From: the human T2T-CHM13v2.0 reference genome, Homo sapiens
Assembly (NCBI GenBank): GCA_009914755.4
Contig: CP068257.2
Coordinates: forward strand, 41,152,001 to 41,216,000
Length of the DNA: 64,000 nt
Direction of reading: 5' to 3'
Of this stretch, positions 5,560 through 47,283 are shown one piece after another (the stretch's first letter is position 1; every line of letters starts with the position of its first letter). The translations under genes and the position numbers were made by a program. The notes beneath the pieces were generated by a model. It was not told the DNA's origin, ran no database searches, and was given only the letters and a program-made list of their open reading frames with translations.

Positions 5560-5574
5560 GTGAGTAACTGTCAC

Positions 5575-6295
5575 CACATGTCACACTTGCTTACACTCAG
5601 ATACATGCATGCACACACAGGCACACACACATATACACATATGCACACAGGTACACACAGACACACACTCATGCACACACATACACAGATACACACAGAC
5701 GCACATACAGGCACATACACATATACACACACGCACACAGCTACACACAGGCACACACACAGGCACACACTTGTGCACACAGGTACACAGGCACACAAAT
5801 GCACACACAGGGCACACAGGCACACACTCGTGCACACACATGTACACAGGCACACACAGGCACACAAATGTGCATGCAGGTACACATGCACACAAGGCAC
5901 ACAGGCACACACAGGCACACAAATGCACACACAGGCACACACACACATGCACACAGGTACACACAGGCACACAAATGCACATGCAGGTACACATGCACAC
6001 ACAGGCACACACAGGGACACACAGGCACACATAGGCACACAAATGCACACACAGGCACACACACATGCACACCGGTACACACAGGCACACACTCGTGCAC
6101 ACGTACACAGGCATACAAATGCACACGCAGGCACACACAGGTACGTAGGCACACACAAGCACATACACATATACACACATGCACACAGGTACACGCAGGC
6201 ACACACGTACAGAGGCACACACATGCACACACAGGTATGCACATGCACGCCCACAGGTACACACAGGCACACCTGCACACCTGCACATCCTGAGC
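5575..6295. repeat. Long imperfect CA-rich repeat (cacacaggcacacacatgcacac...), ~720 bp, inside a PDE9A intron
   Basis: It directly abuts the exon donor at 5560. It is stop-free in several frames on both strands, which produces the 269-286 aa artefactual ORFs. Confidence 0.95.
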
Positions 6296-7181
6296 AGCCT
6301 CTTCCCCGGCTGTCGTCGTGACCGCTGTCCCTGTTCCATCCAGAGCCTGCTACCCACAGCCTGGCCCGTGACCCCAGCATCTCCCACTCTGTGCTGCACT
6401 CCCTGCCTTGCCTTGCTGGGCCCTGGGGGGCCCCTCACTGCCCTCGCCCATCGCTGCCGGCCTTCAGGACCCTGGAGGCAGCACTGGCTGTGGACTCTCC
6501 TGTCCCCACTCTGCGTCCCAGTTCCTCACCTGTGGAGGAACCCCTGAGCTCTGTGCCCTCGAGCTGTGAAGCCCCTGTCCAGCTCCCAGTCTCACCGCAC
6601 CCAGCCACCGAGACCTTGCTCCTTGCACACAGCTCGTTCCTGCCCAGCTCCCCCCAGGGCCTCTGAGCTGCCTGTGGCCCCCTGCCAAGGCCCCCACCTC
6701 AAGGCACCCCCAGCATGTCCAAAACAGGCCCATCTCTTGTTCCCCCCGGGGATCTGGGCTCACAGCCTCACACCCTCCGACCTTCCTGGGCTCCTACGCT
6801 GCGCATCCTTCTGCTCTAGGGCATCTCTTGGAGCCACCCCACCCACTTCCCACTCCCAGGACCCTCAGCCGGGAGGCTGTCAGCTCCTTTCCCCTGCCCC
6901 GTGTCTTTGTAAGAACCTCCCAACCTGTCCCCCACCCTCATCTCACGGGCACGGGGGACACAGGAGGCAGGAAGGGGACTTTCTGTAGGACCTCATGGAG
7001 GGTGATGAGGGCCAGAGACAGAGCCGCAGTGGGTGGAGGCAGCAGAGCCGGCACGAGGGTGTCCAGGAGCTGGGACTGGCCCAGAGGTTTCCGCATGGAG
7101 CACCTGACACCTGTTTTTCTCCGACGTTTCCCATTGCCTTAAGAACGAGGGACTCTGAATAAATCCGTGTGTCTCTCCCAG

Positions 7182-7277
7182 CTCTTCCCCATGGTTGAGG
7201 AGATCATGCTGCAGCCACTTTGGGAATCCCGAGATCGCTACGAGGAGCTGAAGCGGATAGATGACGCCATGAAAGAG
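7182..7277 (+). CDS. PDE9A: PDE9A coding exon of 32 codons, [32 protein letters not shown]
   Basis: Acceptor gtctctcccag|CTCTTCCCC and donor AAAGAG|gtaaaa. The frame matches ORF 7167..7382. Confidence 0.88.
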
Positions 7278-8917
7278 GTAAAACACACTGAGAAGAGCCT
7301 GCCTTCCTTGCGGCAAGCAGGCACGCTGCCCTCCGCACTCCCGACTCCAGAAGCTTGGACGTGCCAAGCAGGGCACCACTGAAGGCCCCGTGGACAGGCA
7401 CACGTGTACCTTCCATCAGAAAGCCTGGCTCAGTAAAATTAGGGAATGCGATGAGGGAAACCAAAACTGCATTCGCCAAGAACACGTCAGGTCTCAGTAG
7501 CTTCGAGGGAGTTTACTGGCCGTGCCCTTCACAAGAATCACAACTGTCACCCACACCTGTGGACACCCAGGTGTCTTTGGGTGTATCAGCCGCCGTTAGA
7601 GCATCTGGGACCCCTCAGAGTACAGTGCCTGGCCTGGCCCCAGGGCTGACTTGTTCAGAGGAGGCCATGGGGTAGAAAGGGGCCCTCCCCTGGCACGGGA
7701 ACAAAGCGACCACCCACCTGCCAGCTCCCGGGCCCAGAACACACACCGGCACCTCTCAGGGGCCAGGGAGCCTGGGGCTGGCTTTAGGTTGCTGCTGGAC
7801 AGATATCATTTTGGAGGAAGGGGTCCAGGTCACAGCCTCAGGGCCCACGCAGTCTGTCTACGGATTCCCCCCGGCTGTCTGCTGTCCTGCTGCCCATGGT
7901 GTGGCCTCTGCCCCTCCCAGCCTCCTGCCTCCTCCCTCCAGCGCCCCCAGGCAGCTAGAACAGTCTTACTACTCCTGCAGGGTTTGACCCCTCCTGGCCT
8001 TGGCCGGTGTTGCCTCTGCCACCCCCGCTCCCCACAGTGCCACTGAAGCACCCTCCAAGGCCCGTCAGTCAGGGCTCCCCTAGTTACTGTGCCCACCACC
8101 CCGTCTTTTCTGCCTGGGCGCTCCTGAAGCCCATGTGGCCCACAATGCCCTTTTGAGCACTGAGCCATTTTCCAGGCGTAGCCTTGGGTTGGTCTCATCT
8201 CCCTCGACTGACGGCCCCGTGCTCCCCATGCCCACACCCGCCTGGAGCGCCATGCCAGGCACATGGTAGGCGCTCAGCAATTGCTTAGGAGTCCACTGAA
8301 AATCCAGACCAGCTGCCCTGACTTCTCCAGTTGATGTCTCCTACTGGAAAGTCACAGAAAGGTCTCTAAACCTCTGGAAGGCTGAGAGCACTTATGCAGA
8401 GGGACAGATGTAGCAAGAAGGCTTCCCCCACTCCACAACCCCGCAAGAGAGCTGAAGGGGCTTCTGCCTCTCTCGTGGGCCCTCCGAGAGCCATAGCCCT
8501 GATGGCCTTGAGTCTCTAGTCCTGAGCCCTGCTGCCCAGTAGGGGATAGTAGGGTTCCTTAAGGCCTCTGCCTTCCCCCCTGTCAGCCCCCACAAAAAGG
8601 AGAGACACGCCAAAGAGGTGAAAAGGCCAAGCCCAAGCCGCAGGCTCTGCACACACCACCAGTCCCCGCGGCTGTGGTGGCTGCAGCTGGGTGAGCTCAC
8701 TGTCCAGGCCCCAGATGAGGCACCAAGGGTAGCGGGACAGGGTATGCAGAGCTGCCTCTGAAAAGCCCATGTCAGGAGTGCTTGGGCTCAGAGGGGCTGG
8801 GGACCACAGGCTTTCACGTTGCAGCACCTCCAGGCAACAGAAGCTGCTGGGAGAGAGGCAGACACTCCCCTGCTGTCTCCTGCTCCCTGACTTGGCCTTC
8901 TCTGTACTCTGTTCCAG

Positions 8918-8999
8918 TTACAGAAGAAGACTGACAGCTTGACGTCTGGGGCCACCGAGAAGTCCAGAGAGAGAAGCAGAGATGTGAAAAACAGTGAAG
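8918..8999 (+). CDS. PDE9A: PDE9A penultimate coding exon of 27 codons plus 1 nt, LQKKTDSLTSGATEKSRERSRDVKNSE+G(1/3)
   Basis: Acceptor ctctgttccag|TTACAGAAG and donor GTGAAG|gtaatg. It ends in phase 1 and needs a downstream exon starting with 2 nt of a Gly codon, which is found at 11759. Confidence 0.85.
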
Positions 9000-9116
9000 G
9001 TAATGCTTGCTCTGCTGAAGTGGCATCTCAGCGCATACAATGATTCTGACAAAGGACAGAAGGAAAGAGGAAGGGGAGAAAATCTGAATTTTGGAATACC
9101 TTTAAATGAATGGAAC

Positions 9117-9410
<294 letters not shown>

Positions 9411-9462
9411 AAATGAATGGAAATTTTATTTCTTGCAACTAATCATTAGAATTAGGCTCTTA

Positions 9463-9758
<296 letters not shown>

Positions 9759-10004
9759 GTGAGGCTCTTAAAGAAGGGGAACATGCTTTAGTTAATAGAA
9801 AAACATCAATAATTAGCATATGTATCACTTATAAGAGTAAGTACTTTTTAAAAGTGCAATTGAAGTACTGAAAACTTTTCACAAATCACGTGTTTGCTTT
9901 ATATGGCTTTGAGCATTTTCCTCTGTACTTGTTGATACTAGTCATTCAGCTCACGGGGAATGCAGAGCAGCCGTTTGTTCACCTCATAATAAGGTCACAC
10001 TAAT

Positions 10005-10655
<651 letters not shown>

Positions 10656-11062
10656 CCATGTCTAACAGATAATTCAAGAGATAGTGCATCAAGCATGCAA
10701 GGCTCAGGGCAGGACAAACGGGACATGGCTCATAAGAGGAGCTGCAACAGGCTTTGGCATCCAACACACCTGGTTTTGAGTCCAGGCTTGCCAATTACAA
10801 GCCGAGAGATGTGCACAAGTGTCCCAGCCTCTCTGAACCTCAGAGCCCCAGTCTCTAAGCCAGAGGCAATAATACCATTGTTACTGCTGTTTTAGTGATT
10901 AAACAGTCAAAGTGCTTGTCTGGTCCCGATGAAGTGCTCAGTCAATGTTGCCATTTAATTTTTAAGTCAGTTCATATTTTTCAGTGGGTCAGAAAAGAGA
11001 TCAATATTGTTTTACTTTGTCTAAATGTGTTCAGCAATATATCTGATGGCCTCTTTCTTTTA

Positions 11063-11714
<652 letters not shown>

Positions 11715-11758
11715 TAATTCTAACAAAAACAAATCAGTCATCGTTTCCCTTCTTCCAG

Positions 11759-11772
11759 GAGACTGTGCCTGA
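11759..11772 (+). CDS. PDE9A: PDE9A terminal coding segment (g)GA GAC TGT GCC TGA = G-D-C-A-stop
   Basis: Acceptor tcttccag|GAGACTGTGCCTGA. It completes the split Gly codon from 8999 and gives the C-terminus ...NSEGDCA*, which matches the PDE9A protein end I recall. Confidence 0.8.
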
Positions 11773-14977: not shown

Positions 14978-15835
14978 GTGGGGGGGGTCAGCCCCCTGCC
15001 CGGCCAGCCGCCCCGTCTGGGAGGGAGGTGGGGGGGTCAGCCCCCGCCCGGCCAGCCGCCCCGTCTGGGAGGGAGGTGGGGGGGTCAGCCCCCCGCCCGG
15101 CCAGCCGCCCCGTCTGGGAGGGAGGTGGGGGGGTCAGCCCCCCGCCCGGCCAGCCACCCCGTCTGGGAGGGAGGTGGGGGGGTCAGCCCCCCGCCCGGCC
15201 AGCCGCCCCATCCAGGAGGTGAGGGGCGCTTCTGCCCGGCCGCCCCTACTGGGAAGTGAGGAGCCCCTCTGCCCGGCCACGACCCCGTCTGGGAGGTGTG
15301 CCCAGCGGCTCATTGGGGATGGGCCATGATGACAATGGCGGTTTTGTGGAATAGAAAGGCGGGAAGGGTGGGGAAAAAATTGAGAAATCGGATGGTTGCC
15401 GGGTCTGTGTGGATAGAAGTAGACATGGGAGACTTTTCATTTTGTTCTGTACTAAGAAAAATTCTTCTGCCTTGGGATCCTGTTGATCTGTGACCTTACC
15501 CCCAACCCTGTGTTCTCTGAAACATGTGCTGTGTCCACTCAGGGTTGAATGGATTAAGGGCGGTGCAAGATGTGCTTTGTTAAACAGACGCTTGAAGGCA
15601 GCATGCGCGTTAAGAGTCATCACCACTCCCTAATCTCAAGTACCCAGGGACACAAACACTGCGGAAGGCCGCAGGGTCCTCTGCCTAGGAAAACCAGAGA
15701 CCTTTGTTCACTTGTTTATCTGCTGACCTTCCCTCCACTATTGTCCTATGACCCTGCCAAATCCCCCTCTGCGAGAAACACCCAAGAATGATCAATAAAA
15801 AAAAAATAAAAAATAAATAAATAAATAAATAAAAT
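14978..15835 (+). mobile_element. SVA composite retrotransposon, 5'-truncated: VNTR-like repeats, then SINE-R, then a poly-A signal and tail
   Basis: 14978-15240 holds about 5 tandem copies of a ~49-bp GC-rich unit (gggggggtcagccccccgcccggccagccgccccgtctgggagggaggtg). 15241-15795 matches the SVA SINE-R region (ctactgggaagtgaggagcccctctgcccggcc...ggccatgatgacaatggcggttttgtggaatagaaagg...ccaagaatgatcaataaa). The poly-A/AATA tail runs to 15835. A 15-bp target-site duplication AAAAATCTCAGTCCA sits at 14963-14977 and 15836-15850. Confidence 0.9.
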
Positions 15836-18477: not shown

Positions 18478-18725
18478 CTGTTGTCAGTCCTGCCTCGCCT
18501 GCCTCCCCTCCCTCCCCTGCCTCTCCTCCCTCCCCTCTTTCCCGTCCCTCCCCTCCCTCCCCTCTCCCCTTCCTCCTCTCCCTCCTCTTACTCCCCTCCC
18601 TCCCCTCCCTCCTCTGCCTCCCTTCCCTCCCCTGCCTCTCCTTTCTCCCCTCCCTCCCCTCACTCCCTTCCCTCTCTTTCCTTCTCTCCCTCTCCTCTCT
18701 CCTCTCCCTTCCCTGCCTGCATGAC
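18478..18725. repeat. Polypyrimidine (CT-rich, more than 95% C+T on the + strand) low-complexity tract, ~250 bp
   Basis: cctgcctcccctccctcccctgcctctcctccctcccctctttcccgtccctcccc.... It produces the proline/serine/leucine-rich artefactual ORFs 18216..18746, 18388..18843 and 18440..18724. Confidence 0.95.
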
Positions 18726-21149: not shown

Positions 21150-21525
21150 AGCACCACCCTACCCCACTCCACCTCACCCCTACCTCACCCCACCTCACCC
21201 CTACCTCACCCCACCTCACCCCACCTCACCCCTACCTCACCCCACCTCACCCCACTCCACCCTCATCCCACCACACCCCCACTCCACCCACCCCTACTCC
21301 ACCCCACCTTTACCCCACCCCACCCCTGCCTCACCCCACCTCACCCCACTTCCACTCCAACCCACCTTACCCCGCCCCTACTCCACCCCACCCCTACCTC
21401 ACCCTCATCTCACCCGACCCCACCCCACCTCCACTCCAGCCCACCCTACCCCATCCCCACCCCACCCCACCCCCACCCTCATCTCACCTGACCCCACCCC
21501 CAGTCCACCCCACCCCCACTCCCCA
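21150..21525. repeat. C-rich minisatellite: ~370 bp of degenerate 9-14 bp units, with ccccacctcacccctacctca as a representative stretch
   Basis: The + strand has C3-C5 tracts every 5-8 nt, so the - strand carries dense G3-G5 runs. It underlies the proline/histidine/threonine-rich artefactual ORFs 21060..21491 and 21109..21789. Confidence 0.92.
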
Positions 21526-24033
21526 CTTTGGGTACAAAAACCAGAAAAGCCCAGGCGAACGGCAGGAGGAGGTAGGTGTCCCGGCCCCATGCGCGCCACA
21601 TGGCTGGCTTGTTCTGTCTGTCATTCCCCTACTCCTTGTTCTGTCCGGGGTTCCTCCAGCCCCACACCTCAGCATGCCTGTGATGCCACCCTCAGACAGC
21701 CGCAGGCCCCGCCCTGTGGTGGTCCCCAAAATTCCAAGTCCGACTCCAATGGCCCGAGACCGGCCAGGCTGGCAGTTTCATCTGGTTAGGGATGCGTGGG
21801 CTCCTCCACATTCCACCTTTTGAGATGTGCTGTAACCTTCTACCTGGACCCCAGACAGACAGGGTCAGCCGAAGCCCCAGGCACTCCTGGACTCAGGCAC
21901 CCGTGACTGGCAGCAGAGCACGTCCCCTAGCCAGGGCCACGTTTGTCATGGGATCGCTGGACATTGGCCACCAGAATGGTGCTGGCATGCTGAATTGGGG
22001 TGGTTCAAAGTGTCTGTATAGATAGGCACCCTGCAGAACCTCCCTTCCTAGGATCCTGAACTCCCCAGGGCGGCCAGGTGGCTGGGACATGCTAAGGGTT
22101 CAGTGACCATTTGTGGGATGAGTGGGTGGATGTGAGTTGTGGTTGCCAACCTAAAGAAGCATGGAGGACAAAACCCACAGGGCAGATTGTGCTGGGGGAC
22201 AAGGGGGTCCCCTGGTAGGCAAGTGTATTCATGTGATGTGTGTGCCTGGGCACGTGTGTACATTATGTGAGGACGTGCACATACCACTCACCTAGCCCTG
22301 CTTCCAGCTAAGAGAAAGGAAGCCAGAAACATGCAAAGATGCCAAGCAAGCACCCTGGGCACGGTTTTCCAGACCTCGCAGGGAACAGAGTAAAAGCTAG
22401 GAATGCTGGGCTTCACGAAGGAGCAGAGGGGGCAGGTGCGGAGGGAGGAGGCCGGCAGAGAGCAGGTCCCTCCTGGAGCAGCGCGATCGGGCGCCGAGGC
22501 CTCATGCAACATCCGACAACTACTCATGGCAAGGAGAATTCTGGACTGACTTTCTATTGTTTTGATTAAAAGTAATTTTATCCAAAAATCCAAAATGTAC
22601 TGGACGTGCCAATCAGAATGGAACAGAAGGAAATGCCGCACTACCTGGCTGCCTCTCCCCTCGGCTGCTGGTGGCTGCCCATAGACCCCTGTGAACAGCT
22701 GATGCATGTCCCACCTGCACCATAGGGCCTGGAGGAAGCGGCTGTAGCAGGACTCGCAGAGTTCCCCGTGCGTGGCCACCGGCCCTGCCTCCATCGCTGT
22801 TGTCTCCCCGCAGGCCAAGGCGAGGCAGGTGGGGCGCACTGCATGGCTCTCAGGGGAAGGATCCACTCAGATGTTCCCTCTGCCCATCGCCTGCCCACCT
22901 TGGACTGCCCACCATCCTGGATGGAGCCACTGGAGGCTCCCGTGGCCCACACTGGCCCCTCCAACACCCCTGCTAACCTCAGGCATGGCCCATCGCTGCA
23001 GCTGTGTTGGGGTGCCTCTGCCATCAGGATGTTGCCCACACAGAAGCCACCTGCTCTGCAGAGAGCAGGAACTGGGGGTTAGGACCTGCATGTGTCGTTT
23101 TGGAGACACGATTCAACTCACGACACTCTTATAGTCTTAGCTTTCCCATCTGTCAACTTCTACCTCTTCAGTTGTTGTGAAGTTTTAATAAAATGAAGTC
23201 ACGCCAGGCAAGTGCTTTGCATGAGGTCTGGTGCTCCTCGGGTACCCCTCGGGGCCTGCCTCATCTCTCCTGTGTGTGGAGGCATCGTTACTCCTATTCC
23301 AAGCAAGCACGGGTGGAGCTGTTAGTTGGGAACGTCTTTTCCTCAAACAAGCCAGGATCTGAGGAAAGCAGAGGGCAGGAACTGTGACCAAAAGAGAACA
23401 ACAGACTCAGAGTACATGTGGAGATCTGGGATCTGCCAGCGGGGTCTCCCTGAGAGGCCTGGGATAGCTCAGGGGCTCTACAAACTGGGTAGTGTGACAT
23501 GGGAGGGGGAAACTGATGGAAATGGGCAAGAAGGAAAAGGTTGACAGGGAGGTAAGAACCCAGGAGAACAAATCATGACCATAACCTACTTGGTCAATTT
23601 CAAACCTAAACTTTTGCGTTTGACTGCCTGGACACAAAAGGAGAGTGTGTCAGCTAGCCCTGGCTGTGTAACAAACCTCCCCAACACTTAGTGGCTTGAA
23701 CAACAATGTTTATTATTTCTCACAGTTCTGAGGGTTGACAGGCAGATTTTTTGGTCTGACCAGCCCGGCTGGAGCTGGCTGGTTTACGATGGCCTCAGCC
23801 ACACGTCTGCCACTTCGTTTGCCAGCAGACTGCAGTTTCAAGCACACGTCTCTGTCATTGTGTGGCAGGCTAACAAGGCTCATTCACACGGTGACAGGTG
23901 GTTCCCAGCAGCCAGAGAATGTTAAGTCCTCCTAAGTCTCAAGCACTTTTCAAGTCTCAGTATGCACGGATCCTTACCTCTCATCGGCCACAGCAAATCA
24001 CATGGTCAAGCCCAAGTTTAAAAACTCGCTTCA

Positions 24034-25904: not shown

Positions 25905-26335
25905 CCTGCACAGCCATAGAGAAAAAGGAAATCATGTCCTTTGCAGTAACGTGGGTGCAGTTGGAGGCCATTGTCTGAAGCGAATTAACGTAGGAAGGGA
26001 AGCCACATACCGCATTTGCTCACTTCCAAGTGGGAGCTGAACACTGAGTGCACAGGACGTAAAGAGGACAGCAACAGACATTGGAGACTATTAGACATGG
26101 GAGGGAGGAGCCAGGGCTGATAAACACCTACTGGGTACTATGCTCAGTACCTGGGTGACGGGATCAGTTGTACAAACATCAGATAAACACCTACTGGGTA
26201 CTATGCTTAGTACCTGGGTGATGGGATCAGTTGTACAAACATCAGCATCACGCAATGTACCCAGGTAACAAACCTGCACATGTACCCCCGAATCTAAAAT
26301 AAAAATTGAATTTTTTTTAAAAAAAGAACTTCTTA
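25905..26335 (+). mobile_element. L1 (LINE-1) 3'-end fragment: end of ORF2 plus 3' UTR, carrying an internal 66-bp tandem duplication
   Basis: gaaatcatgtcctttgcag...cacataccgcatttgctcacttccaagtgggagctgaacactgag...gtaacaaacctgcacatgtacccccgaatctaaaataaaaatt is characteristic of an L1 3' end. The unit gataaacacctactgggtactatgctYagtacctgggtgaYgggatcagttgtacaaacatcag is present twice, at 26121-26186 and 26187-26252. Confidence 0.85.
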
Positions 26336-36512: not shown

Positions 36513-36765
36513 GGAGGATTGCTTGAGTCCAGGAGTTTAAGACTGGCCTGTGCAACATAGCGAGACCTCATCTCTACTAAAAATTTTAAAAAATTAGCCA
36601 GGCATAGTGGCCTGCACCTGTAGTCCCAGCTGCTAGGAGGGCTGAGGTGGGAGGATCACTTGAGCTCAGGAGGTGGAGCCTGCAGTGCGCCGTGATCGCT
36701 CCACTGGACTGCAGCCTGGGTGACGGTGAGACCCTGTCTCAAAGGAAACAAAAAAAGGAGAACTT
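36513..36765 (+). mobile_element. Alu SINE, 5'-truncated
   Basis: agcaggaggattgcttgagtccaggagtttaagactggcctgtgcaacatagcgagacctcatctctactaaaaa...gcctgggtgacggtgagaccctgtctcaaagg. Confidence 0.85.
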
Positions 36766-37002
36766 CCAGACTTGGGGTAAAAAACTGTCCATTGGTTGGA
36801 TACTATGTTTTGCTGCTGGTTATAGAAAATGAAAATAAGACTGATTTATCTTGATAGCATGAACATGACAGAGGCTTATTTTTCCTCATGTTGAGAAGAC
36901 TGAAGAGAAGCAAGCATGAGGTCAAATACTAAGCAAACCTCTTGCCAGTCTTGCAGCTCCTCAAGAGCCTGAGAGCCACCTCTTTGGTGGTGGTGGTGGT
37001 GG

Positions 37003-37295
<293 letters not shown>

Positions 37296-37422
37296 GAACC
37301 ACCTCTCTGAATCGTCAAGGAAGCTGACACCACCTTGCGGTTTCCTAGAGTTTCCTTTAGACTACGAAATACGGTGAGTTGACCAATTGTACCTTGAAAA
37401 CCTGAAGGCCAGGGGTTGTATC

Positions 37423-37869
37423 TTTCACACGCGTCCGTGTGAAGAGACCACCAAACAGGCTTTGTGTGAGCAACAAGGCTGTTTATTTCACCTGGGTGCA
37501 GGCAGGCTGAGTCCGAAAAGAGAGTCAGTGAAGGGAGATAGGGGTGGGGCCGTTCTATAAGCTTTGGGTAGGTAAAGGAAAAAGGGGGGTTCTCTGGTGG
37601 GCAGGAGTGGGGGGTCACAAGGTGCTCAGTGGGGGAGCTTTCTGAGCCAGGATGAGCCAGGAGAAGGAATTTCACAAGGTAATGTCATCAGTTAAGACAA
37701 GGACTGGCCATTTTCACTTCTTTTGTGGTGGAATGTCATCAGTTAAGGCAGGAACCGGCCATTTAAATATCACTTCTTTTGTGATTCTTCAGTTACTTCA
37801 GGCCATCTGGATGTATACGTGCAGGTCACAGGGGATATGATGGCTTAGCTTGGGCTCAGAGGCCTGACA
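37423..37869 (-). mobile_element. HERV-H 3' LTR (LTR7)
   Basis: The + strand reads tttcacacgcgtccgtgtgaagagaccaccaaacaggctttgtgtgagcaacaaggctgtttatttcacctgggtgcagg...gcttgggctcagaggcctgaca. It is followed on the sense strand by a purine-rich PPT-like aagaagacaggaa. Confidence 0.88.
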
Positions 37870-39864
37870 TTCCTGTCTTCTTATATTAATAAGAAAAATA
37901 AAACATAATAGTGTTGAAGTGTTGGGGCGGCGAAAATTTTTGGGGGGTGGTATGGAGAGATAATGGGCGATGTTTCTCAGGGCTGCTTTGAGCGGGATTA
38001 GGGGCGGCGTGGGAACCTAGAGTGGGAGAGATTAAGCTGAAGGAAGATTTTGTGGTAAAGGGTGATATTGTGGGGTTGTTAGAAGAAACATTTGTCGTAT
38101 AGAATTATTGGTGATGGCCTGGATATGGTTTTGTATGATTTGAAAAAAGAACGGAATAAGACAAGGAGAAAAACAGGTATTAAAGGACTAAGAATTGGAA
38201 GGACCCAGGACATCTAACTAGAGAGTGCCCAAGGAGGTTCAGCATAGCCCTGCCAGCGAAGATTATTTATTTACTTTAAGAGGGAGTTAAGAGTGGTGAT
38301 TTAGGGATAGCACCAGTAGATATCAGCTGTGATGGCTTGGAGAAACAGTGTAAACCAGCAGTGTAAACAAGAGCAGGGCATTTATGAGTAGTTGAGAACG
38401 GCGAATAGGAGTATGATTAGACAGAAGATAGTAGGGATGACAAGTTTTGTTTTTCTTGCGGGGGGGAGGGCGCCGCAGTCCAACTTGGTCTGGTGTCTGG
38501 AATGAGACTGGGGCCTAATAAAAAGGAGCGTCTATACAGGAGCTCAAATGGGCTGTACCTTGTGGCATTCTGAGGACAGGCCTGAATTCTGAGAAGGTCA
38601 AGTGGTAAAAGTATTGTCCAGTCCTTTTTAAGTTGGTGGCTGAGCTTGGTGAGGTGTGTTTTTAAAAGACCATTAGTTCACTGAATAAGAGCTTGAGAAA
38701 CTGCTTGGCTGATTTGACTAATAAAGGCTGGTCCGTTATAGGACTGTATAGAGGTGGGAAGGCCAAACCGAGGAATTATGTCTGACAGAAGGGAAGAAAT
38801 GACCGTGGTGGTCTTCTTAGACCCTGTGGGAAAGGCCTCTACCTATCCAGTGAAAGTGTCTACCCAGAACAAGAGGCATTTTAGTTTCCTGACTCGGGGT
38901 ATGTTGAGTAAAGCCAATTTGCCAGCCCTGGGCGGGGGCAAATCCTCACGCTTGATGTGTAGGGAAAGGAGGGGGCCTGAATAATCCCTGAGGAATAGTA
39001 GGATATCAGATGGAACATTGAGAAGTTATTTCCTTGAGGATAGATTTCCACGATGGAAAGGAAATGAGAGGTTCTAAGAGGCGGGCTAGTGGCTTGTACT
39101 ATAGCATAGCCTGCCTTTGCTGGTGTGTGGCAATTAGGCCTGGTGGAAGTGCCATCAATAAATCAAGTGTGATCAGGGTGAGGAACAGGAAAGAAGGAAA
39201 TATGGGGAAATGGGGTGAATGTCAGGTGGATCAGAGAGATACAGTCACGGGGGTCAGGTGTGGTATCAGGAATAATGTGGGAGGCCGGATTAAGTCCAGG
39301 CCAGGAACAATGGTTATTGTGGGAGACTCAACAAAGAGTGAGTACAGCTGAAGGAGCCGGGAAGCAGAAAGTATATGTGTCAGGTGTGAGGAGGAAAACA
39401 GATTTTGGAAGTTATGAGAACTGTAGAGAGTGAGTTGAGCATAGTTTGTGATTTTAAGGGCCTCTAAAAGTATTAGTGCGGTGGTGGCCGCCGCATGCAG
39501 ATTTGAGGGCTAGGCAAAACAGTAAGGTCAAGTTGTTTGGATAAAAAGGCTACAGGGCGCAGTTCCGGTTCTCGTGTAAGAATTCTGGCTGCACAGCCCT
39601 GCACTTCGGCTGTGGGTAATGAAAAGGGTTGGGATGAGTCAGGGAGAGCTAGCGTGGGGGCCAACTCTAAAGCTGTCTTCAAGGAATGGAAAGAGGAGTG
39701 GGGAAAGGATTTAGGATCTATGGGCTCAGCTAGGTTTCCTTTTGTGAGTTTATATAATGGTTTTGTTAGGATGGCAAAACCAGGTATCTAAAGTCGAAAG
39801 TATCCAACCATGCCTAGGAAGGAAAGGAGTTGTTGTTTTGTAGAAGGTGTTGGGGTTTGAGAGA

Positions 39865-40318
39865 TCAGTCGGACACGATCGGCAGGGAGAGCACGTGTGT
39901 TTTTATGAGAATTACGCTGAGATAGGTAACAGATGAGGAAGAAATTTGGGCTTGACTGAAGTAATGGGGGCTGGCTGTGAAGCCTTGTGGCAGTACAGCC
40001 CAGGTAATTTGCTGAGCCTGATGGATGTGAGGGTCAGTCCAAGTGAAAGCGAAGAGAGGCTGGGATGAAGGGTGCAAAGGAATAGTAAAGAAAGCATGTT
40101 TGAGATCCAGAACAGAATAATGGGTTGTGGAGGGAGGTATTGAGAATAGGAGAGTATATGGGTTTGGCACCACGGGGTGGATAGGCAAAACAATTTGGTT
40201 GACAAGGCACAGATCCTGAACTAACCTGTAAGCCTTGTCTGGTTTTAGGACAGGTAAAATGGGTGAATTTTAAGGGGAATTTGTAGGCTTTAAAAGCCCA
40301 TGCTGCTGTAACAGGCAA
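39865..40318 (-). pseudogene. HERV-H pol remnant (reverse transcriptase region), disrupted by frameshifts
   Basis: Minus-strand ORF 39865..40188 translates to ...HYSVLDLKHAFFTIPLHPSSQPLFAFTW...QITWAVLPQGFTASPHYF. The LDLKDAFF / FAFxW / LPQGF motifs are gammaretroviral RT motifs. Overlapping ORFs 39912..40205 and 40034..40318 lie in other frames, indicating frameshifts. Confidence 0.75.
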
Positions 40319-42682
40319 GTGATAACAGGCTTTAATCCTTTTAAAGCATGCTGTGGGATGGGATATTGGCCTTGAGCAGGGTAAGGGTGATTAGGTTTTA
40401 ATGGGATGGTAAGGGGTGCATGATCAGTCTCCAAGGAGGGAGTAGAGGTATCCTATACTTGTGGGTTAAGGTGCGGGGATAGGAGAGGAGGATGTGAAGG
40501 AGGCTTTGAACTGGGGAAAAGGGCAGCAATGAGGTGTGGCTGTAGTCCAGGAACAGTCAGGCAAGCAGATAATTTAAAGTGTCTCGGCCTAATAAGGGAA
40601 CTGGGCAGGTGGGGATAACTAAAAAAGAGTGATAAAAGAGTATTGTCTAAGTTGGCACCAGAGTTTTAAGAGGTTTAGAAGCCTGGCCGTCAATACCCAC
40701 AACAGTTATGGAGGCAAGGGAAACAGGTCCTTGAAAAGAAGGTAATGTGGAGTGGGAGCCTCCGTATTGATTAAGAAGGGGACGGACTTATCTTCCACCG
40801 TGAGAGTTACCCAGATCGTCTGTGATGGTCCTGTAAACTCCCGAGGTGATCGGGCAGCGTCAGTCTTCAGCTGCTAAGCCGAGAAGATCTGGGAAGGAGT
40901 CAGACAGCCTTGGGCCAGAGTTCCAGGCACTCTGGAAGTGGCTGCCAGGTGAGTTGAACAGCCCGATTTTCAGTGGGGTCCTGCACAGATGGGACATGGC
41001 TTAGGAGGAATCCTGGGCTGTGGGCATTCCTTGGCCCAGTGGCCAGATTTCCGGCACTTGTAGCAAGCTCCTGGGGGAGGAGTTTCTGGAGGAACCCCTG
41101 GCAGCTGCGGTTCAGGCATTTGGAGTTCTTGTGTGCTGGAGATGTGGCTGGGGTTTGTCTCACAGTGGAGGCAAGGAATTGCAACTCAGAAATATGTTAC
41201 TACTTAGCTGCCTCTACTCTATTGTACACCTTGAAGGCGAGGTTAATTAAGTCCTGTTGTGGGGTTTGAGGGCCGGAATTTAATTTTTGGAGTTTAATGT
41301 CAGGAGCGGACTGGGTAATAAAATGTATATTGAGACTAAGACAGCCTTTTGACCTTTTAGGGTCTAGGGCTATAAAGCATCTCAGGGTTGCTGCCGAATG
41401 AGCCATGAACTGGGCTGGGTTTTTCATATTTGATGAAAAAGAGCCTAAATGCTAACTGATTTTGGGAGAGGTCGGATAAAGAAAAGGGAGCATTAACCTT
41501 GACTATGCCTTTAGCTCCAGCCACCTTTTTAAGAGGAAATTGCTGGGCAGGTCGGGGAGGGCTAGTCGCAGAATGAAACTGTAAGCCAGACTGGGTGTGA
41601 GGAGGGGAGGTGATAAAAGGATTATGGGGTGGGGGAGCAGAGGCTGAGGAAGAATTGGGACCTGGCTCAGCCTGGCAAGGAGCAGCCTGGGGAGGGGGCG
41701 TGAAGTCAGATGGGTCTGTAGAAAAGGAGAATTAGAAAAACTCAGTGACGCTTGGGATTGGGACTGAGAGGACAGGCGGGAGGGAAAGAAGGAGGATTTG
41801 GGACATGTCACATTGGGAACAGAGGCTAGGGAGGGAACAATGTGTAAAAGAATGCCTGGACGTCAGGCACCTCAGACTGTTTGCCTATTTTACGATAAGA
41901 ATTATCTAGATCTTGTAGGATGGAAAAATCGAAAGTGCTGTTTTCTGGCTATTTGGAACCACTGTTGAGTTTGTATTGGGGTCAAGCGGCATTGCAGAAG
42001 AAAATAAGGCATTTAGGTCAGGTGTGAGTTGAAGAGGTTTTGAGTTCTTGAGAACACAGGCTAAGGGAGAAGGAGGAGGAATGGAGGGTGGAAGGCTGCC
42101 CATAGTGAAGGAGGCAAGCCCAGAGAAAAGAGAGAGTAGAGACACGGAGAGAAGGGGTTGAGGGGTTCTTGCCCCCTAGAAAAGCGGAGAAGGGGTAGAG
42201 ACACGGAGAGAAGGGGTCGGGGGGTTCTTGCCCCCCAGAAAAGCAGTACTTGCCGCTAAGGGTGAAGGACCAAGGCAGGTGTCCCCGCATGGTCAGACAC
42301 CTCTGAAATGTGGGTGAATAATCAGGCAGGCGTCCCTGTGTGATTAAACACCAAGGGAAGATTGTCTTCCCGAGTCTGTGACTGGCGCCAGAGTTTTGCG
42401 TCCATGGATAAAACACGTCTCCTGTCTCTATGAGAAAAGAAAAGGAACTGAAATTAAGAGAAGGGAGAGATTGAAGTGTGGCACCAAGATTGAAAGGAGA
42501 AAGAGGGTGAAGGATAGTGAGAGAGGTTGGAGAAGAGAGTAAGAAGAGGCCACTTACCTGATTTAAAATTGGTGTGATGTTCCTTGGTCTGGTTGGTCTG
42601 AGGACCTGAGGTCGTAGGTGGATCTTTCTCATGGTGCAAAGAGCAGGAGGATGAGATTGATCTCCCAAGGGAGGTCCCTCAG

Positions 42683-42699
42683 TCCGAGTCATGGCACCA
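42683..42699 (-). other. Retroviral primer-binding site complementary to the tRNA-His 3' end (TGGTGCCATGACTCGGA)
   Basis: The + strand reads tccgagtcatggcacca at 42683-42699. Its reverse complement TGGTGCCATGACTCGGA lies 2 nt from the inner edge of the 5' LTR. This is the defining HERV-H (His) primer-binding site. Confidence 0.85.
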
Positions 42700-42701
42700 A
42701 A

Positions 42702-43150
42702 TTTCACTCGCATCTGTGTGAAGAGTCCACCAAACAGGCTTTGTATGAGCAACAAGGCTGTTTATTTCACCTGGGTGCAGGCAGGCTGAGTCCGAAAAGA
42801 GAGTCAGCCAAGGGAGATAGGGGTGGGGCCATTTTATAAGATTTGGGTAGGTAAAGGAAGAAGGGGGGTTATTCTCTGGCGGGCAGGAGTGGGGGTCACA
42901 AGGTGCTCAATGGGGGAGCTTTTTGAGCCAGGATGAGCCAGGAGAAGGAATTTCACAAGGTAATGTCATCAGTTAAGGCAAGGACTGGCCATTTTCACTT
43001 CTTTTGTGGTGGAATGTCATCAGTTAAGGCAGGAACAGGCAATTTAAATATCACTTCTTTTGTGATTCTTCAGTTACTTCAGGCCATCTGGATGTATACG
43101 TGCAGGTCACAGGGTATATGATGGCTTAGCTTGGGCTCAGAAGCCTGACA
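42702..43150 (-). mobile_element. HERV-H 5' LTR (LTR7)
   Basis: The + strand reads tttcactcgcatctgtgtgaagagtccaccaaacaggctttgtatgagcaacaaggctgtttatttcacctgggtgcagg...gcttgggctcagaagcctgaca. I counted roughly 20 or more mismatches and small indels against the other LTR over ~440 bp. Confidence 0.88.
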
Positions 43151-46100
43151 GTATCTAATCCACTTTGCTATACAAAGGCGTGAGATTCCTACTGTCTTTC
43201 CAATCCTTTGAGTGGATTCCTGGGATGCACATTACATTCTCGTTAAATGCTTCTTTGATAATGCAATGGCTTCCTTCCTCTTCTGCTTTGTGGAGAGGTT
43301 TTCTTGGGTTGGGAGGAGGCTTTGTTTCTAATTCTGCTTCCCCAGTACAGTCTTGGCTGGTGGAGCAGCTTTCCCATTTGTCAGCGTTTCAAGTCCTTTT
43401 ATGTTTCTGCGTCAGTTTCCTTAATATGTGGCATTGTGGAAACAAGCAAAGACCACCTGCCTAAGACCAAGCACGCGCCGTGTATTCCGAGCTGGCTCTA
43501 GTGAGGGGGCCACCTCCACCACCTGCCTTTGGCAGAGACTCAGGGAAGGCATGGGGGAAGCTTGGTGATGGACGACAGACCCCGGGGTGCCCGGATGAGG
43601 CCTTTTTCAAAAGGAAGCTGGGCAGGCTCGTGGGAGCGGACATCCTAGGGGTGCATATTTGACTTTCTCTAGTTAGTCCAAAATTGGAAGCAGGGACAAA
43701 AATGAGGGAAGCTGACAGTTATTAATCAAATCCTGGGCAGTTTGGACCAATTGTTAGAGGGGTCATTGTTTGGCTTCCCTGACCAGTTACCTGTGGTAAC
43801 AGGCTTACTACAGAGCTGACTTAGAGAGAGAAGGCTGGCTCCCGGGGCTGGTTACAGGGGATCACAGGTTGGTTTCCTGAGCTGGTTGCACAGATTATAA
43901 TTCGGGGTTCTGTTTTTATATGAGGTCTGACCATTGTTCATTTGTATATTCAGTTTCTCAATATTTGCCATCAAGGTGACCTCATGGTCCTAATGTAGCA
44001 GGACGAGCCGCGGACAAAATCCCTCAGACACTGAGATAGTGAAGGGAGTGGCTTTAATCAGCTGGGAGCATGGGCAGGCTAGCGTCTTAAAATCCGAGCT
44101 CCTTGGGTGCTCAACTTCTGTCCCTTTTAAGGGCTCACAACTCTAAGGGGGTCCGCGTGAGAGGGTCGTGATCGATTGAACAAGCCAGGGGGTATGTGAC
44201 AGGGGCTGCGAGCACCGGTGGTCAGAGTGAAACAGAACAGAACGGGAGGTTTCACAATGTCCTTCCATACAATGTCTGGAATCTATAGATAACATCAGTT
44301 GCTAGGTCAGGGGTTGAATTTTAACTACCAGGCTTAGGTCAGGCAGGCCCAGGCCTGGTTTCAGGTCTGGTTCCTAGGCACCGGGCTACCTGCCTTTAGT
44401 TTTGCTTCTCTTTCTTTTTCTGAGTATAAAACAATATAAAACAATATGAGAGGGTCTCTCTCGTCCCTCACTAATGTGGTAGGAGTTATTAAGAAATTAT
44501 TTTAGGCAGATAGGAAAAGTTTTCATTTCTTTTAAAGCAGCTCCAAAAACATTTCTTGTCTAGAAGGATAGCAGGGTGGCAACCTTTGATATGCAAATGG
44601 AGGATATTAGAAACTGGGTCCACCTAACATGGCAGTTCTCACGGTGTCCTCTTGCCCTTGCCCCCACATGTGCCTGGCAACATGACCGCCCCCACAGATC
44701 CCCACGTGTGTAGAACATCATGGCGCTCTGCATTTGCATATTAAAAGGCTAGGGTGGGAGGGTCAGCTTTTTCACAGGCCATGTGAATGACATGCCTGGT
44801 CAAACCAATGACCTGAGCCCTGTGCAAATCAGACGCCACCTCCTACGGTCTCTACATAAAACTGGCTGGTATCCGTGGCACTTGGGGTTTCCTCTTTAGG
44901 CTTTGGAGTCCCCCTCCCTCTGTCTCCGTATGAGGGAGCCTCTTCCTTCTGCCTTTTCTTTCTTGCCTATTAAACTCCCCGCTCTTTATAGCCATTCTAC
45001 ATGTGCCCCATGTCGTTTTATCTAAATTGCACAAGACAAGAACCTGGTGTTCCTCCACCCATCGGAGCCGTATCACTAATAGGCCACTGGAGATCCAGCC
45101 ATTGTGACCACATTCCAGGCAGGAAGAAGAAAGCAGAAGGCAAAGAGCACGCCTCCCAAGTGAATCCCTATACAGGTTCCACCCAAATACATTTGCTTCC
45201 ATCTCTCTAGCCCTCTCTGCCTTCAAGGATGCGGGGAAATTTGTTTACTGGCACAAATCATGCCCCCAAAACAAGAGGACTTCTGTTGAAGGACAAAGGG
45301 ACGCTGGATATTGCACAGGGAACCAACAATCTTGTTCACACCTTCAGCCTGAAAAACTAGAAAAATAGACCCAGGAGGAAAACACATTTATGAAGAATGC
45401 ATCACTGAATATCATCTTGAATGTATTCTTCAATACGAAATAATTCTTTTAAGACAATTACTTTAATAAAGGATTGGTTGACAGTCACGATTATGTGCTC
45501 AAAATATACTCTTCTGATGCCTTCTCAAATCCCCCTGTCTTTACTCCCCACACACCCCATCTCCAGGGCACTAAGGCAGAGACAGAATGAAGGGTCAGTG
45601 TGCTGATAGAAACACAAGTTGACGACCACCCAAGGAAAACGAATTAGTTCAAAGAAGCAATACATTGGGAAGTTGGTCATTTGGCAAATTGGCTCTTCCA
45701 AGAATTGGCTTTTTGCAATTGCACTACAGCAAGTGAGTGAGAAAAGCAAAAGCCCCATGGGATGGGGAGGAAGATCTTCCCTAAAGACTGCAGGGGGCCT
45801 TCCTGGGGGGCCAGAGATCCTCTTCCAAGTTCGGTGAGGTCCCCGGGACTGGAGCCTTGAGTCTACCGCAGAGTAATGACTCCCTTTAAACTCTATCATC
45901 TGTAGCCGCTGGAAATGATTAAATGAAGCAAAAGCTGAAAATCACTGAGTTCAGGAGAGACTGTGTCCTAAAGACACGCAAGGGAACAAGTCCTTTGCAT
46001 GTTTGAGACTGGAGTGTGCTCCAGCAGCTTGGGAAGCAGGGGCGCCTCGCTGGGGAACCACATTACAGGAGGGAAGGGGAAGAATAAGGGCCTTAAAAAG

Positions 46101-46189: not shown

Positions 46190-46450
46190 AATGCTGCAAG
46201 CACACACACACATGCACATGCACGCATAGGCACACACATGCACACCTACAGGCACACACAGGCACGCACACACACGTACATACTCATCACAGGTACATGC
46301 ATGCCCAGGCACATACACACATGCACAGGCACTCACACACATGTACATACACACATGCACAGGTACACATGCACAGGCACATACATGCACACACACAGGC
46401 ACGCACGCACACTCACATGCACACACGCACAAGCACACATACACATGCAC
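46190..46450. repeat. Imperfect CA-rich repeat (cacacacatgcacatgcacgcataggcacacac...), ~260 bp
   Basis: Same motif family as 5575-6295. It produces the artefactual ORFs 46139..46501, 46154..46486 and 46297..46539. Confidence 0.95.
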
Positions 46451-47283
46451 ACATTCCACTGTCTTTCCTTCCCTGGGGTTCTCCATTTCCCCTGCTGCTA
46501 GCAGTGGATCAGGAGATGCTTTCTTTCCGTTTGCACTGAGATTTGCTCCTCACTTCTCTTGCTCTGGAGCTGCGACGTCCTGGGGAAGCAGCTGTGCGCA
46601 GTAGTTGCCCTCCCCTGAGCGAGCTGTCAGTCCCCCTTGCAGAGGACACACATAGTGACAGTGTCCTCCTGCCTCTCCCCACAGGAAAAACAAAATTGTC
46701 ATTCCTCCACCAGAGATTCACTTTTCTCCATTAGGGAACTGTCCATTATTAAAATGCAAGGCGGTGACCGCCAGTTGATAAAAGGATGGAGAGTGCCTCC
46801 GAACCCTCCTGGGAGACTGGGAAATGGGAAACCCCAGGGAGGGAAAGGGAGGTGGTGCCGGTCCTGCTTTGATTCAATCGGAGCAAGAATACTTCAAAGG
46901 AAGAATAGAAAAATATTGGGTTGGAAGCTTTCTAAAAAACAAAAAGCAAGCATGGATGAATAGATGAGTCATTGACAATTTAATGGGAATTAGCTCCTCT
47001 AATCATTTCTAATTGCAACTGACAAGAAAGGGTTTTGATGCAGAAGAAAGCAGATATTTTGCAAGGGTGGAACCCTGGGTGATTCTGTTTGGGAACTGCT
47101 GACTGGAGCGGGAAGGGACCGCCAGGGGTGAGGAGGAAACACTTGGGTGGAGGCTGCAAAGGAGGCTCCCAGGCCCTAGCTTCGGGCTTTCCCGCACAGG
47201 GGCCTGCCGCCCTGGTGATCTCCCTTGGGCCAGCAGGGACTCTAGACTCTGCCTCTACAGCCAGATAGCTGGGTTTACATTCA

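What the first reader, a model, noticed from the sequence alone, without database searches (positions are those of the whole stretch)
37418..43155. Structurally complete HERV-H provirus with both LTR7s, primer-binding site, RT remnant and intact 5-bp target-site duplication, antisense to PDE9A
Two ~440-bp direct repeats are the reverse complement of LTR7. The right one is immediately followed inward by a tRNA-His primer-binding site (TGGTGCCATGACTCGGA). The internal region contains gammaretroviral RT motifs in broken frames. Identical GTATC pentamers flank the whole element, and a 5-bp target-site duplication is typical for this family. The total length of ~5.7 kb fits the abundant deleted HERV-H form lacking most of pol and env. 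The two LTRs differ by several percent, so the element is old. LTR7/HERV-H loci are well known as pluripotency-associated promoters, enhancers and lncRNA sources. A copy about 25 kb from a gene's 3' end on the opposite strand could in principle drive antisense or read-through transcripts.
Basis: partly seen in the sequence, partly recalled or inferred. Interest (0 to 1): 0.5.

Follow-up and report, generated by a model that had tools for sequence, protein, structure and literature searches.

The report
Known degenerate HERV-H provirus near PDE9A
This is an ordinary, already catalogued fossil of the human endogenous retrovirus HERV-H, with both end repeats but only wrecked genes, lying about 25 kb downstream of the PDE9A gene in the opposite orientation; published stem-cell data show no transcription from it.

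Summary
On the minus strand there are two LTRs, 449 bp (42702-43150) and 447 bp (37423-37869), with 19 mismatches in 446 aligned positions (4.3%). They are flanked by identical GTATC pentamers. A tRNA-His primer-binding site (16/18) lies 2 nt inside the 5' LTR and a polypurine tract abuts the 3' LTR. The 4,832-bp interior holds colinear gag, protease, RT, RNase H and integrase remnants in three frames, with 50-63 stops per frame. The RT remnant is closest to Moloney MLV RT (E 2e-45); a ~170-nt deletion removes its catalytic centre, and env is almost gone.

The LTRs match published LTR7 consensus sequences, not 7B, 7C or 7Y. They are a mosaic: substitutions like 7d (94-96%), block structure like 7u1/7up.

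Human PDE9A 3' exons lie on the plus strand at 1786-11772. The element corresponds to chr21:42,800,848-42,806,577 (hg38, minus strand) in Carter et al. 2022. That study calls it 7d1 by phylogeny and LTR7up1 by re-masking. In H1 ESC it is NANOG+, H3K4me3+ and H3K27ac+, but has no RNA, GRO-seq, chimeric-transcript, KLF4 or SOX2 call.

Verdict: a correctly identified, already known, coding-dead provirus. Low interest.

The parts
37418..37422 (.). Target-site duplication, left copy (GTATC on +, GATAC on the proviral sense strand)
   Evidence: Read directly from the sequence. Identical to 43151-43155.
37423..37869 (-). 3' LTR (447 bp). LTR7 type. TATA box mutated to TATAGAA (37553-37559). AATAAA at 37482-37487.
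   Evidence: Direct repeat. Alignment to the 5' LTR. blastn and global alignment to the Carter et al. LTR7 consensi. Motif positions.
37870..37882 (-). Polypurine tract, AAGAAGACAGGAA on the sense strand, directly upstream of the 3' LTR
   Evidence: Sequence. Assignment by position and purine content is an inference.
38385..38423 (-). Possible remnant of the env transmembrane C-terminal tail (CLIILLFAVLNYS...). The rest of env is absent.
   Evidence: Translation. No Pfam env hit at E<=0.1. The resemblance to the gammaretroviral TM tail is from memory only, so this is tentative.
38687..38884 (-). Integrase catalytic-core remnant
   Evidence: Pfam rve E 5e-5, below the gathering score. PDB deltaretroviral and other integrases E 1e-7. 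Coordinates.
39085..39174 (-). RNase H N-terminal remnant (DHTxFIDGTS...AGYAIVQATS). The C-terminal part of RNase H and the integrase N-terminus appear deleted.
   Evidence: Translation and coordinates. Identification by resemblance to the MLV RNase H start is from memory. No Pfam RNase_H hit.
39491..39889 (-). RT thumb/connection remnant
   Evidence: Pfam RT_RNaseH_2 E 7.8e-6. PDB MoMLV RT chain 4mh8 residues 261-392, E 1e-20. Coordinates.
39949..40419 (-). RT N-terminal (fingers and start of palm) remnant. It is followed by only 59 nt before the thumb, so about 170 nt including the YXDD site are deleted.
   Evidence: Pfam RVT_1 E 2e-10, profile positions 2-132 of 205. PDB MoMLV RT residues 21-179, E 2e-45. 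Spacing.
40563..40777 (-). Protease remnant (FLINTEAPTPH in place of the DTGA-type active site)
   Evidence: Pfam RVP E 0.042, weak. Translation and coordinates.
40958..41065 (-). Nucleocapsid with two zinc knuckles (CYKCRKSGHWAKEC, and CPICAGPHxKSGC with a stop codon)
   Evidence: Pfam zf-CCHC E 3.8e-6. Coordinates. Vargiu et al. 2016 place HERVH in the HERVHF supergroup, where they refer to 'the two-zinc finger HERVs'.
41218..41424 (-). Gag capsid (p30) remnant
   Evidence: Pfam Gag_p30 E 3.7e-3, below the gathering score, profile positions 131-201 of 201.
42129..42244 (-). Two tandem copies of a 57-59-nt unit in the leader/5' gag region
   Evidence: the repeat finder family D4, 89% identity. 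Not reported by TRF at score >= 50.
42682..42699 (-). Primer-binding site, TGGTGCCATGACTCGGAC on the sense strand, complementary to the 3' end of tRNA-His
   Evidence: 16/18 identical to the HERV-H PBS-His primer TGGTGCCGTGACTCGGAT (PMC3253121). The first 17 nt of that primer equal a tRNA-His(GTG) probe (PMC3413118). Only such site in the window.
42702..43150 (-). 5' LTR (449 bp). LTR7 type. TATAAAA at 42832-42838. R-region primer site at 42785-42805. AATAAA at 42761-42766. Two AAAAGAAG motifs at 43054-43061 and 42998-43005.
43151..43155 (.). Target-site duplication, right copy (GTATC)
   Evidence: Read directly from the sequence.

Best explanation
This is a fixed, coding-dead HERV-H provirus of the common ~5.7-kb deleted type, on the minus strand in the intergenic DNA about 25 kb downstream of human PDE9A. 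It arose from one retroviral integration, which made the 5-bp GTATC duplication, roughly 10-20 million years ago. Because it already lacked a functional pol and env, it was most likely copied by proteins supplied in trans by more intact HERV-H elements (inference). It encodes nothing today. Its 5' LTR keeps a TATA box, an R region, a poly(A) signal and the duplicated AAAAGAAG block. It has 7d-type substitutions and lacks the upstream CCCCACC box of the 7up consensi. That fits the published data for this locus in H1 embryonic stem cells: NANOG binding and H3K4me3/H3K27ac marks, but no KLF4 or SOX2 binding and no detectable RNA. The most likely present-day activity is at most a weak, NANOG-bound promoter- or enhancer-like site in pluripotent cells, not a lncRNA-producing HERV-H locus.
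For: Structure: LTR pair, TSD, PBS and PPT. Colinear gag-NC-PR-RT-RNase H-IN remnants in three frames with 50-63 stops per frame. RT closest to MoMLV RT at E 2e-45, against 1e-16 for foamy virus and 1e-7 to 1e-12 for HIV. The YXDD region is deleted.

Family: the LTRs show 92-96% substitution identity to the LTR7 7d/7u1/7up consensi and 82-89% to 7b/7c/7y, with many gaps for the latter. The PBS matches tRNA-His. The sense strand is G-poor (15%) and T-rich (28%), as reported for HERVH.

Single integration: the TSDs are identical, and both LTRs share a private TATTT insertion and a ~10-nt deletion.

Age: K2P 0.044. The 7d1/2 wave is dated to 9-20 Mya by orthology.

Locus identity and regulation: PDE9A exons are in the window. 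Carter et al. list chr21:42800847-42806578, minus strand, 7d1, with RNA 0, GRO 0, chimeric 0, KAP1 0, NANOG 1, KLF4 0, SOX2 0, ZNF534 1, H3K4me3 1, H3K27ac 1, H3K9me3 0.

Motifs: CCCCACC at about position 111 is present in the 7up1/7up2 consensi and absent from 7u1, 7d1/2, 7bc, 7o and both window LTRs. 7b, 7c, 7y and 7u2 carry other CCCCACC boxes further into U3.
Against: The link between the window and the Carter et al. entry rests on four things: the PDE9A exons, orientation, element length (5,728 vs 5,730 bp), and my recollection of PDE9A's hg38 coordinates. It was not confirmed by a direct sequence match to chr21. The H3K4me3 and H3K27ac calls suggest some promoter-like activity, so 'no transcription' may only mean below 2 FPKM in H1. 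Other cell states (naive ESC, embryo, tumours) were not examined. Reading CCCCACC as the KLF4 site is my inference. Trans-complementation is inferred from general HERV-H literature, not shown for this copy.
Confidence: 0.9

Rival explanations
1. The provirus is an active, 7up-like, pluripotency-specific promoter that produces a HERV-H lncRNA or transcripts running towards PDE9A on the antisense strand.
For: Re-masking with the new consensi labels it LTR7up1. Both LTRs have the 2a/2b duplication with the 8-bp AAAAGAAG element that Carter et al. showed is required for 7up promoter activity. The 5' LTR TATA box is intact. NANOG, H3K4me3 and H3K27ac calls are positive.
Against: RNA, GRO-seq and chimeric-transcript calls are all 0, as are KLF4 and SOX2. 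KLF4 binding is described as the strong predictor of transcription. The phylogenetic call is 7d1, and six diagnostic substitutions in the first 67 nt differ from 7u1/7up. The upstream CCCCACC box of the 7up consensi is absent. 85% of 7u1 loci and 32% of 7d1 loci bind NANOG without being transcribed.
Confidence: 0.08
2. The two LTRs come from different proviruses. On this view the element is the product of inter-element recombination rather than one integration, so LTR divergence does not date it.
For: HERV-H LTRs show frequent inter-element recombination. The LTR is a mosaic of 7d-like and 7u/7up-like features.
Against: Identical 5-bp duplications flank the element. Both LTRs share the same private TATTT insertion, the same ~10-nt deletion and the same mosaic pattern. 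The mosaic therefore predates integration.
Confidence: 0.02
3. The repeats, PBS and pentamers are chance similarities or an assembly artefact.
For: None found.
Against: 447-449-bp repeats at 95.7% identity, blastn E values down to 1e-171 against LTR7 consensi, a unique PBS, colinear retroviral domains and an independent published annotation.
Confidence: 0

Closest known systems
HERV-H (RTVL-H) deleted ~5.8-kb proviruses with LTR7 LTRs
   Same: 447-449-bp LTR7 LTRs beginning TGTCAGG. tRNA-His PBS. MLV-like gag-pro-pol. Two NC zinc knuckles. env almost entirely missing. G-poor sense strand. 5-bp TSD. It is the very locus listed at chr21:42,800,848-42,806,577 in Carter et al. 2022.
   Different: Nothing essential differs. 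Both LTRs carry a private 5-nt insertion (TATTT) and a ~10-nt deletion (TTGACTGTAAT region).
LTR7d1/7d2 subfamily (Carter et al. 2022)
   Same: Highest substitution identity (94-96%). 7d-type bases in blocks 1, 3 and following. Tree-based published call is 7d1. Age by LTR divergence fits the 9-20 Mya wave. No ESC transcription.
   Different: It retains a 43-nt segment (LTR positions 68-110, CCTGAAGTAACTGAAGAATCACAAAAGAAGTGA...) that the 7d consensi lack.
LTR7up1/up2 and 7u1 subfamilies
   Same: Same block structure: 2a plus the duplicated 2b, with two AAAAGAAG motifs. Best gap-free alignment score. RepeatMasker with the new library labels it LTR7up1. NANOG-bound with H3K4me3/H3K27ac.
   Different: Six diagnostic substitutions in the first 67 nt and others elsewhere differ. 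It lacks the upstream CCCCACC box of 7up. No KLF4, SOX2, FOXA1 or FOXP1 binding and no RNA or GRO-seq signal in H1 ESC.
Moloney murine leukaemia virus (gammaretrovirus) Pol
   Same: RT residues ~21-179 and 261-392 align at E 2e-45 and 1e-20. Same domain order.
   Different: The catalytic palm segment is deleted, there are dozens of stops and frameshifts, and the PBS is His rather than Pro.

Membership tests
HERV-H / LTR7 | LTRs align to the LTR7 consensus | tested here: met
   Global and blastn alignments to the 11 consensi of Carter et al. supplementary file 7. Substitution identity is 92-96% to 7d1/7d2/7u1/7up over the full length, with E down to 1e-171.
HERV-H / LTR7 | [quoted passage not shown] | tested here: met
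   TGGTGCCATGACTCGGAC at 42682-42699, 2 nt after the LTR. 16/18 to the HERV-H PBS-His primer, whose first 17 nt equal a tRNA-His(GTG) probe.
HERV-H / LTR7 | Class I (gammaretrovirus-like) gag-pro-pol interior | tested here: met
   Pfam Gag_p30, zf-CCHC, RVP, RVT_1, RT_RNaseH_2 and rve hits in colinear order. MoMLV RT is the best PDB match, E 2e-45.
HERV-H / LTR7 | pol/interior clusters with HERVH-int reference sequences | not testable with these tools
   No HERVH-int reference or Dfam/Repbase library was available. Indirect support: the published OneCodeToFindThemAll record calls the locus a full '2ltr_int' element, and the G-poor, T-rich strand bias matches that reported for HERVH.
HERV-H / LTR7 | Short target-site duplication flanking the provirus | tested here: met
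   GTATC on both sides. That 5 bp is the family norm is my recollection; two literature searches found no statement to cite.
LTR7up (ESC-active subfamily) | Groups with 7up by sequence phylogeny or diagnostic substitutions | tested here: not met
   Positions 23, 32, 33, 46, 58 and 59 and others carry the 7d/7bc state. Published tree call is 7d1.
LTR7up (ESC-active subfamily) | Block 2b duplication with the 8-bp AAAAGAAG (SOX2/3) element | tested here: met
   Two AAAAGAAG motifs, and CCACCACAAAAGAAGTG at LTR position 139, in both LTRs.
LTR7up (ESC-active subfamily) | Transcribed and KLF4-bound in human ESC | not testable with these tools
   Published binary calls for the locus are RNA 0, GRO-seq 0, KLF4 0 and SOX2 0. 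No expression data could be analysed here.
LTR7d1/7d2 | Highest substitution identity to the 7d consensi | tested here: met
   94.3-96.4% identity, against 90.8-93.7% for 7u1/7up. Segment-wise counts.
LTR7d1/7d2 | 7d block structure, with a gap after CAGATGG | tested here: not met
   The window LTRs keep the 43-nt segment at positions 68-110 that is gapped in 7d1/7d2.

The most novel reading that the evidence does not exclude
The LTR may be a structural intermediate in LTR7 evolution. It combines 7d-type substitutions with the full Y'-X-Y-X block arrangement of 7u1/7up, including the 43-nt segment that 7d lacks. If this is an ancestral state rather than a 7d x 7u recombinant, the block-2 tandem duplication would predate the 7d/7up split, and 7d would have arisen by a 39-43-nt deletion between ATGGCC repeats. 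That would slightly revise the published model, in which the duplication arose in the 7up/7u1 ancestor and block 2b is absent from 7d.
Probability: 0.3. Interest if true: 0.15.

Novelty: already known. Interest (0 to 1): 0.07.

Why it matters
It matters little. HERV-H has about a thousand copies in the human genome, and this one is already annotated and included in a published locus-by-locus regulatory table. The useful results are that the first-stage call was accurate and that the locus is not one of the ESC-transcribed LTR7up elements. A minor further point: this copy shows why tree-based and RepeatMasker-based LTR7 subfamily labels can disagree.

Tried and rejected
- **Rfam:** the whole window at gathering threshold gave no hit.
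- **Literature searches with no result:** HERVH + PDE9A, hg38/hg19 coordinates, 'HERVH_21q22.3', and the HERV-H TSD length. The statement that 5 bp is typical therefore stays as recollection.
- **Pfam on DNA references:** failed because of stop codons. It was repeated with X-masked translations.
- **My initial recollection:** I thought the central U3 looked like LTR7B rather than LTR7. This was wrong and was corrected by the published consensi.
- **Empty-site check inside the window:** I looked for an older repeat spanning the reconstructed empty site to verify the TSD independently. Only Alu matches to the left flank were found.
- **Secondary insertions:** none found. There is no Alu inside the provirus, and no other LTR7 or HERV-H fragment in the window.
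- **TRF:** found no tandem array inside the element at score >= 50, although repeat finder shows a 2-copy 57-59-nt duplication.
- **Not run:** the large protein-database searches and structure prediction, because the identification did not depend on them.
- **LTR alignments in Carter et al. supplementary files 5 and 6:** these are truncated in the held copy and did not contain this locus.
Full report
**1. Observation**

The region holds two long direct repeats, 37423-37869 (447 bp) and 42702-43150 (449 bp). Aligned as minus-strand sequences, they differ at 19 of 446 positions plus two small indels. That gives p = 4.26% and K2P = 4.4%, with 12 transitions, 7 transversions and 5 changes in CpG context.

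- Each repeat begins TGTCAGG and ends GTGAAA on the minus strand.
- GTATC lies immediately outside both ends, at 37418-37422 and 43151-43155. A fixed-position 5-nt match has a chance probability of about 1/1024.
- Two nucleotides (TT) inside the right-hand repeat lies TGGTGCCATGACTCGGAC (42682-42699). It is the only sequence in the 64-kb window within three mismatches of the HERV-H/tRNA-His primer-binding sequence.
- A purine run, AAGAAGACAGGAA, directly precedes the left-hand repeat on the sense strand.

**2. Interior**

The 4,832-bp interior has 50-63 stop codons in each sense frame, and the longest stop-to-stop stretch is 227 codons. I scanned X-masked translations against Pfam. The hits are colinear on the minus strand:

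| Domain | E-value |
|---|---|
| Gag_p30 | 3.7e-3 |
| zf-CCHC | 3.8e-6 |
| RVP | 0.042 |
| RVT_1 | 2e-10 |
| RT_RNaseH_2 | 7.8e-6 |
| rve | 5e-5 |

There was no env family hit.

- **RT, N-terminal piece.** Against PDB sequences it is closest to Moloney MLV RT (E 2e-45, residues 21-179). Foamy virus, HERV-K and HIV RTs score far lower (1e-16 to 1e-7).
- **RT, second piece.** It matches MLV RT residues 261-392 (E 1e-20).
- **RT deletion.** Only 59 nt separate the two pieces, where MLV has 77 codons. About 170 nt, including the catalytic YXDD segment, are therefore deleted.
- **RNase H and integrase.** An RNase H N-terminal motif (DHTxFIDGTS) is followed after about 300 nt by the integrase core. 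This implies a second deletion of the RNase H C-terminus and the integrase N-terminus. The MLV spacing used here is from memory, so this is an inference.
- **env.** About 820 nt lie between the integrase core and the PPT, so env is almost wholly missing.
- **Nucleocapsid.** It has two zinc knuckles. Vargiu et al. place HERVH in the HERVHF supergroup, where they refer to 'the two-zinc finger HERVs' (PMC4724089).
- **Base composition.** The sense strand is 15% G, 32.5% C and 28% T. That matches the bias against G and towards T reported for HERVH.
- **Secondary insertions.** No Alu or other secondary insertion lies inside, and no other LTR7 or HERV-H fragment occurs in the window.

**3. Family and subfamily**

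Carter et al. 2022 (eLife, PMC8912925) provide consensus sequences for 11 HERV-H LTR subfamilies. The window LTRs align end to end with the LTR7 sensu stricto consensi. Substitution identities are:

| Consensus | Identity |
|---|---|
| 7d1/7d2 | 94.3-96.4% |
| 7u1 | 92.4-93.7% |
| 7up1/2 | 90.8-92.9% |
| 7b, 7c, 7y | 82-89%, with many gaps |

My initial recollection that the central U3 looked like LTR7B was wrong.

A segment-by-segment comparison shows a mosaic:

- **Positions 1-67** are identical to 7bc, differ by one substitution from 7d, and differ from 7u1/7up at six diagnostic sites.
- **Positions 68-110** are a segment the 7d consensi lack, matching 7u1 at 37/37 positions.
- **Positions 111-300** are closest to 7d1 (178/182).
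- **The R/U5 poly(A) region** (AAATAAACAGCCTTGTTGC) is the 7bc/7d2 type.

Both LTRs share a private TATTT insertion and a ~10-nt deletion. The mosaic and these indels therefore predate integration, and the two LTRs derive from one provirus.

Motif content:

- The LTRs have two AAAAGAAG elements, like 7u1/7up. This is the 8-bp element that Carter et al. found necessary for 7up promoter activity.
- They lack the CCCCACC box at about position 111, which among the LTR7 sensu stricto consensi (7o, 7bc, 7d1/2, 7u1, 7up1/2) only 7up1/7up2 carry. The other consensi (7b, 7c, 7y, 7u2) have CCCCACC boxes elsewhere in U3.
- I read that box as a KLF-type CACCC site. That reading is an inference from general knowledge.

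The PBS is 16/18 identical to the HERV-H PBS-His primer TGGTGCCGTGACTCGGAT (PMC3253121). The first 17 nt of that primer were used elsewhere as a tRNA-His(GTG) probe (PMC3413118). One of the two differences is a CpG-to-CpA change. The same paper's R-region primer matches both LTRs exactly.

**4. Genomic context and locus identity**

Plus-strand exons sit at 1786-1899, about 4592-4696, 5431-5559, 7182-7277, 8918 to about 9000, and a last coding exon starting near 11759 with its stop at about 11772. The first four of these translate to 148 consecutive residues that are 100% identical to human PDE9A chains in the PDB. The last two give the C-terminal end ...SEGDCA*.

The provirus is therefore intergenic, about 25.6 kb beyond the PDE9A stop codon, and convergent with the gene.

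Carter et al. supplementary file 1 lists a full-length element at chr21:42,800,847-42,806,578 (hg38), minus strand, subfamily 7d1. Supplementary file 2 lists the same interval (42,800,848-42,806,577, 'C', full, two LTRs plus interior) as LTR7up1 after re-masking. The length (5,730 vs 5,728 bp), the orientation and the position about 25 kb past PDE9A all agree. The PDE9A hg38 coordinates are from my memory.

The disagreement between the two published labels is explained by the mosaic described above: 7d-type substitutions in a 7up-type block structure.

**5. Age**

With K = 0.044 and T = K/2u, a rate of 2.2e-9 per site per year gives about 10 My, and a hominoid rate near 1.1e-9 gives about 20 My. 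These rates are standard assumptions, not measured here. The range agrees with the 9-20 Mya (mainly 14-20 Mya) wave that Carter et al. infer for 7d1/2 and 7u1 from orthologous insertions. Orthology itself could not be tested with the tools available.

**6. Function**

For this locus, the column headings of the Carter et al. table and the row itself give:

| Call = 0 | Call = 1 |
|---|---|
| RNA (>2 FPKM), top GRO-seq, chimeric transcript, KAP1, OCT4, MED1, KLF4, FOXA1, FOXP1, SMAD1, SOX2, TCF4, ZNF90, H3K4me1, H3K9me3 | NANOG, ZNF534 (HEK293 over-expression), H3K4me3, H3K27ac |

According to the paper:

- Robust ESC transcription is restricted to 7up.
- KLF4 binding is the strong predictor of transcription.
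- NANOG binds many untranscribed 7u1 loci (85%) and 7d1 loci (32%).

The simplest reading is a dead provirus whose 5' LTR retains a core promoter (TATAAAA at 42832-42838; the 3' LTR has TATAGAA). It keeps some pluripotency-factor binding with active chromatin marks, but does not produce stable RNA in primed ESC. Other cell states remain untested.

**7. Verdict**

The finding is real and was correctly interpreted. It is an ordinary member of a family with about 1,000 copies and is already present in public annotation and in a published locus table. The only mildly interesting detail is its intermediate LTR architecture.

Noticed in passing
window 1786-1899, ~4592-4696, 5431-5559, 7182-7277, 8918-~9000, ~11759-11772 (+ strand): The 3' coding exons of human PDE9A. 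Four of them give 148/148 aa identity to PDB PDE9A chains. The last two give ...SEGDCA* after a GGTAATG donor and a TTCCAG acceptor.
   Followed up: partly
window 37423-37869 and 42702-43150: The same locus carries two different published subfamily labels, 7d1 by tree and LTR7up1 by re-masking. The LTR keeps a 43-nt segment absent from the 7d consensi. It also suggests that 7d may derive from a duplicated (Y'-X-Y-X) ancestor by deletion, rather than lacking block 2b as published.
   Followed up: partly
window 14981-15224: Five copies of a 49-bp G+C-rich unit (GGGGGGGTCAGCCCCCCGCCCGGCCAGCCGCCCCGTCTGGGAGGGAGGT), 95% matches. From memory this resembles the VNTR of an SVA retrotransposon. Not checked.
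   Followed up: no
window 5611-6280: A long imperfect (GCACACACAG)n / CA-rich array begins about 50 nt after the PDE9A exon that ends at 5559. A similar CA-rich array lies at 46200-46453.
   Followed up: no
window 1373-1610; 18489-18718; 21154-21526: Simple and low-complexity arrays: (TGGA)n of about 60 copies just upstream of a PDE9A exon, (CCTCCCTCC)n, and (CCACC)n of about 70 copies.
   Followed up: no
window 36587-37300 and throughout: The window is Alu-dense, with 62 Alu-like blastn hits. A minus-strand Alu ends about 125 bp left of the provirus, and an inverted Alu pair lies at 36587-36724 / 37030-37167. No Alu has inserted into the provirus.
   Followed up: partly
window 26119-26245: Two tandem copies of a 63-bp unit at 96% identity. 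Origin unknown.
   Followed up: no
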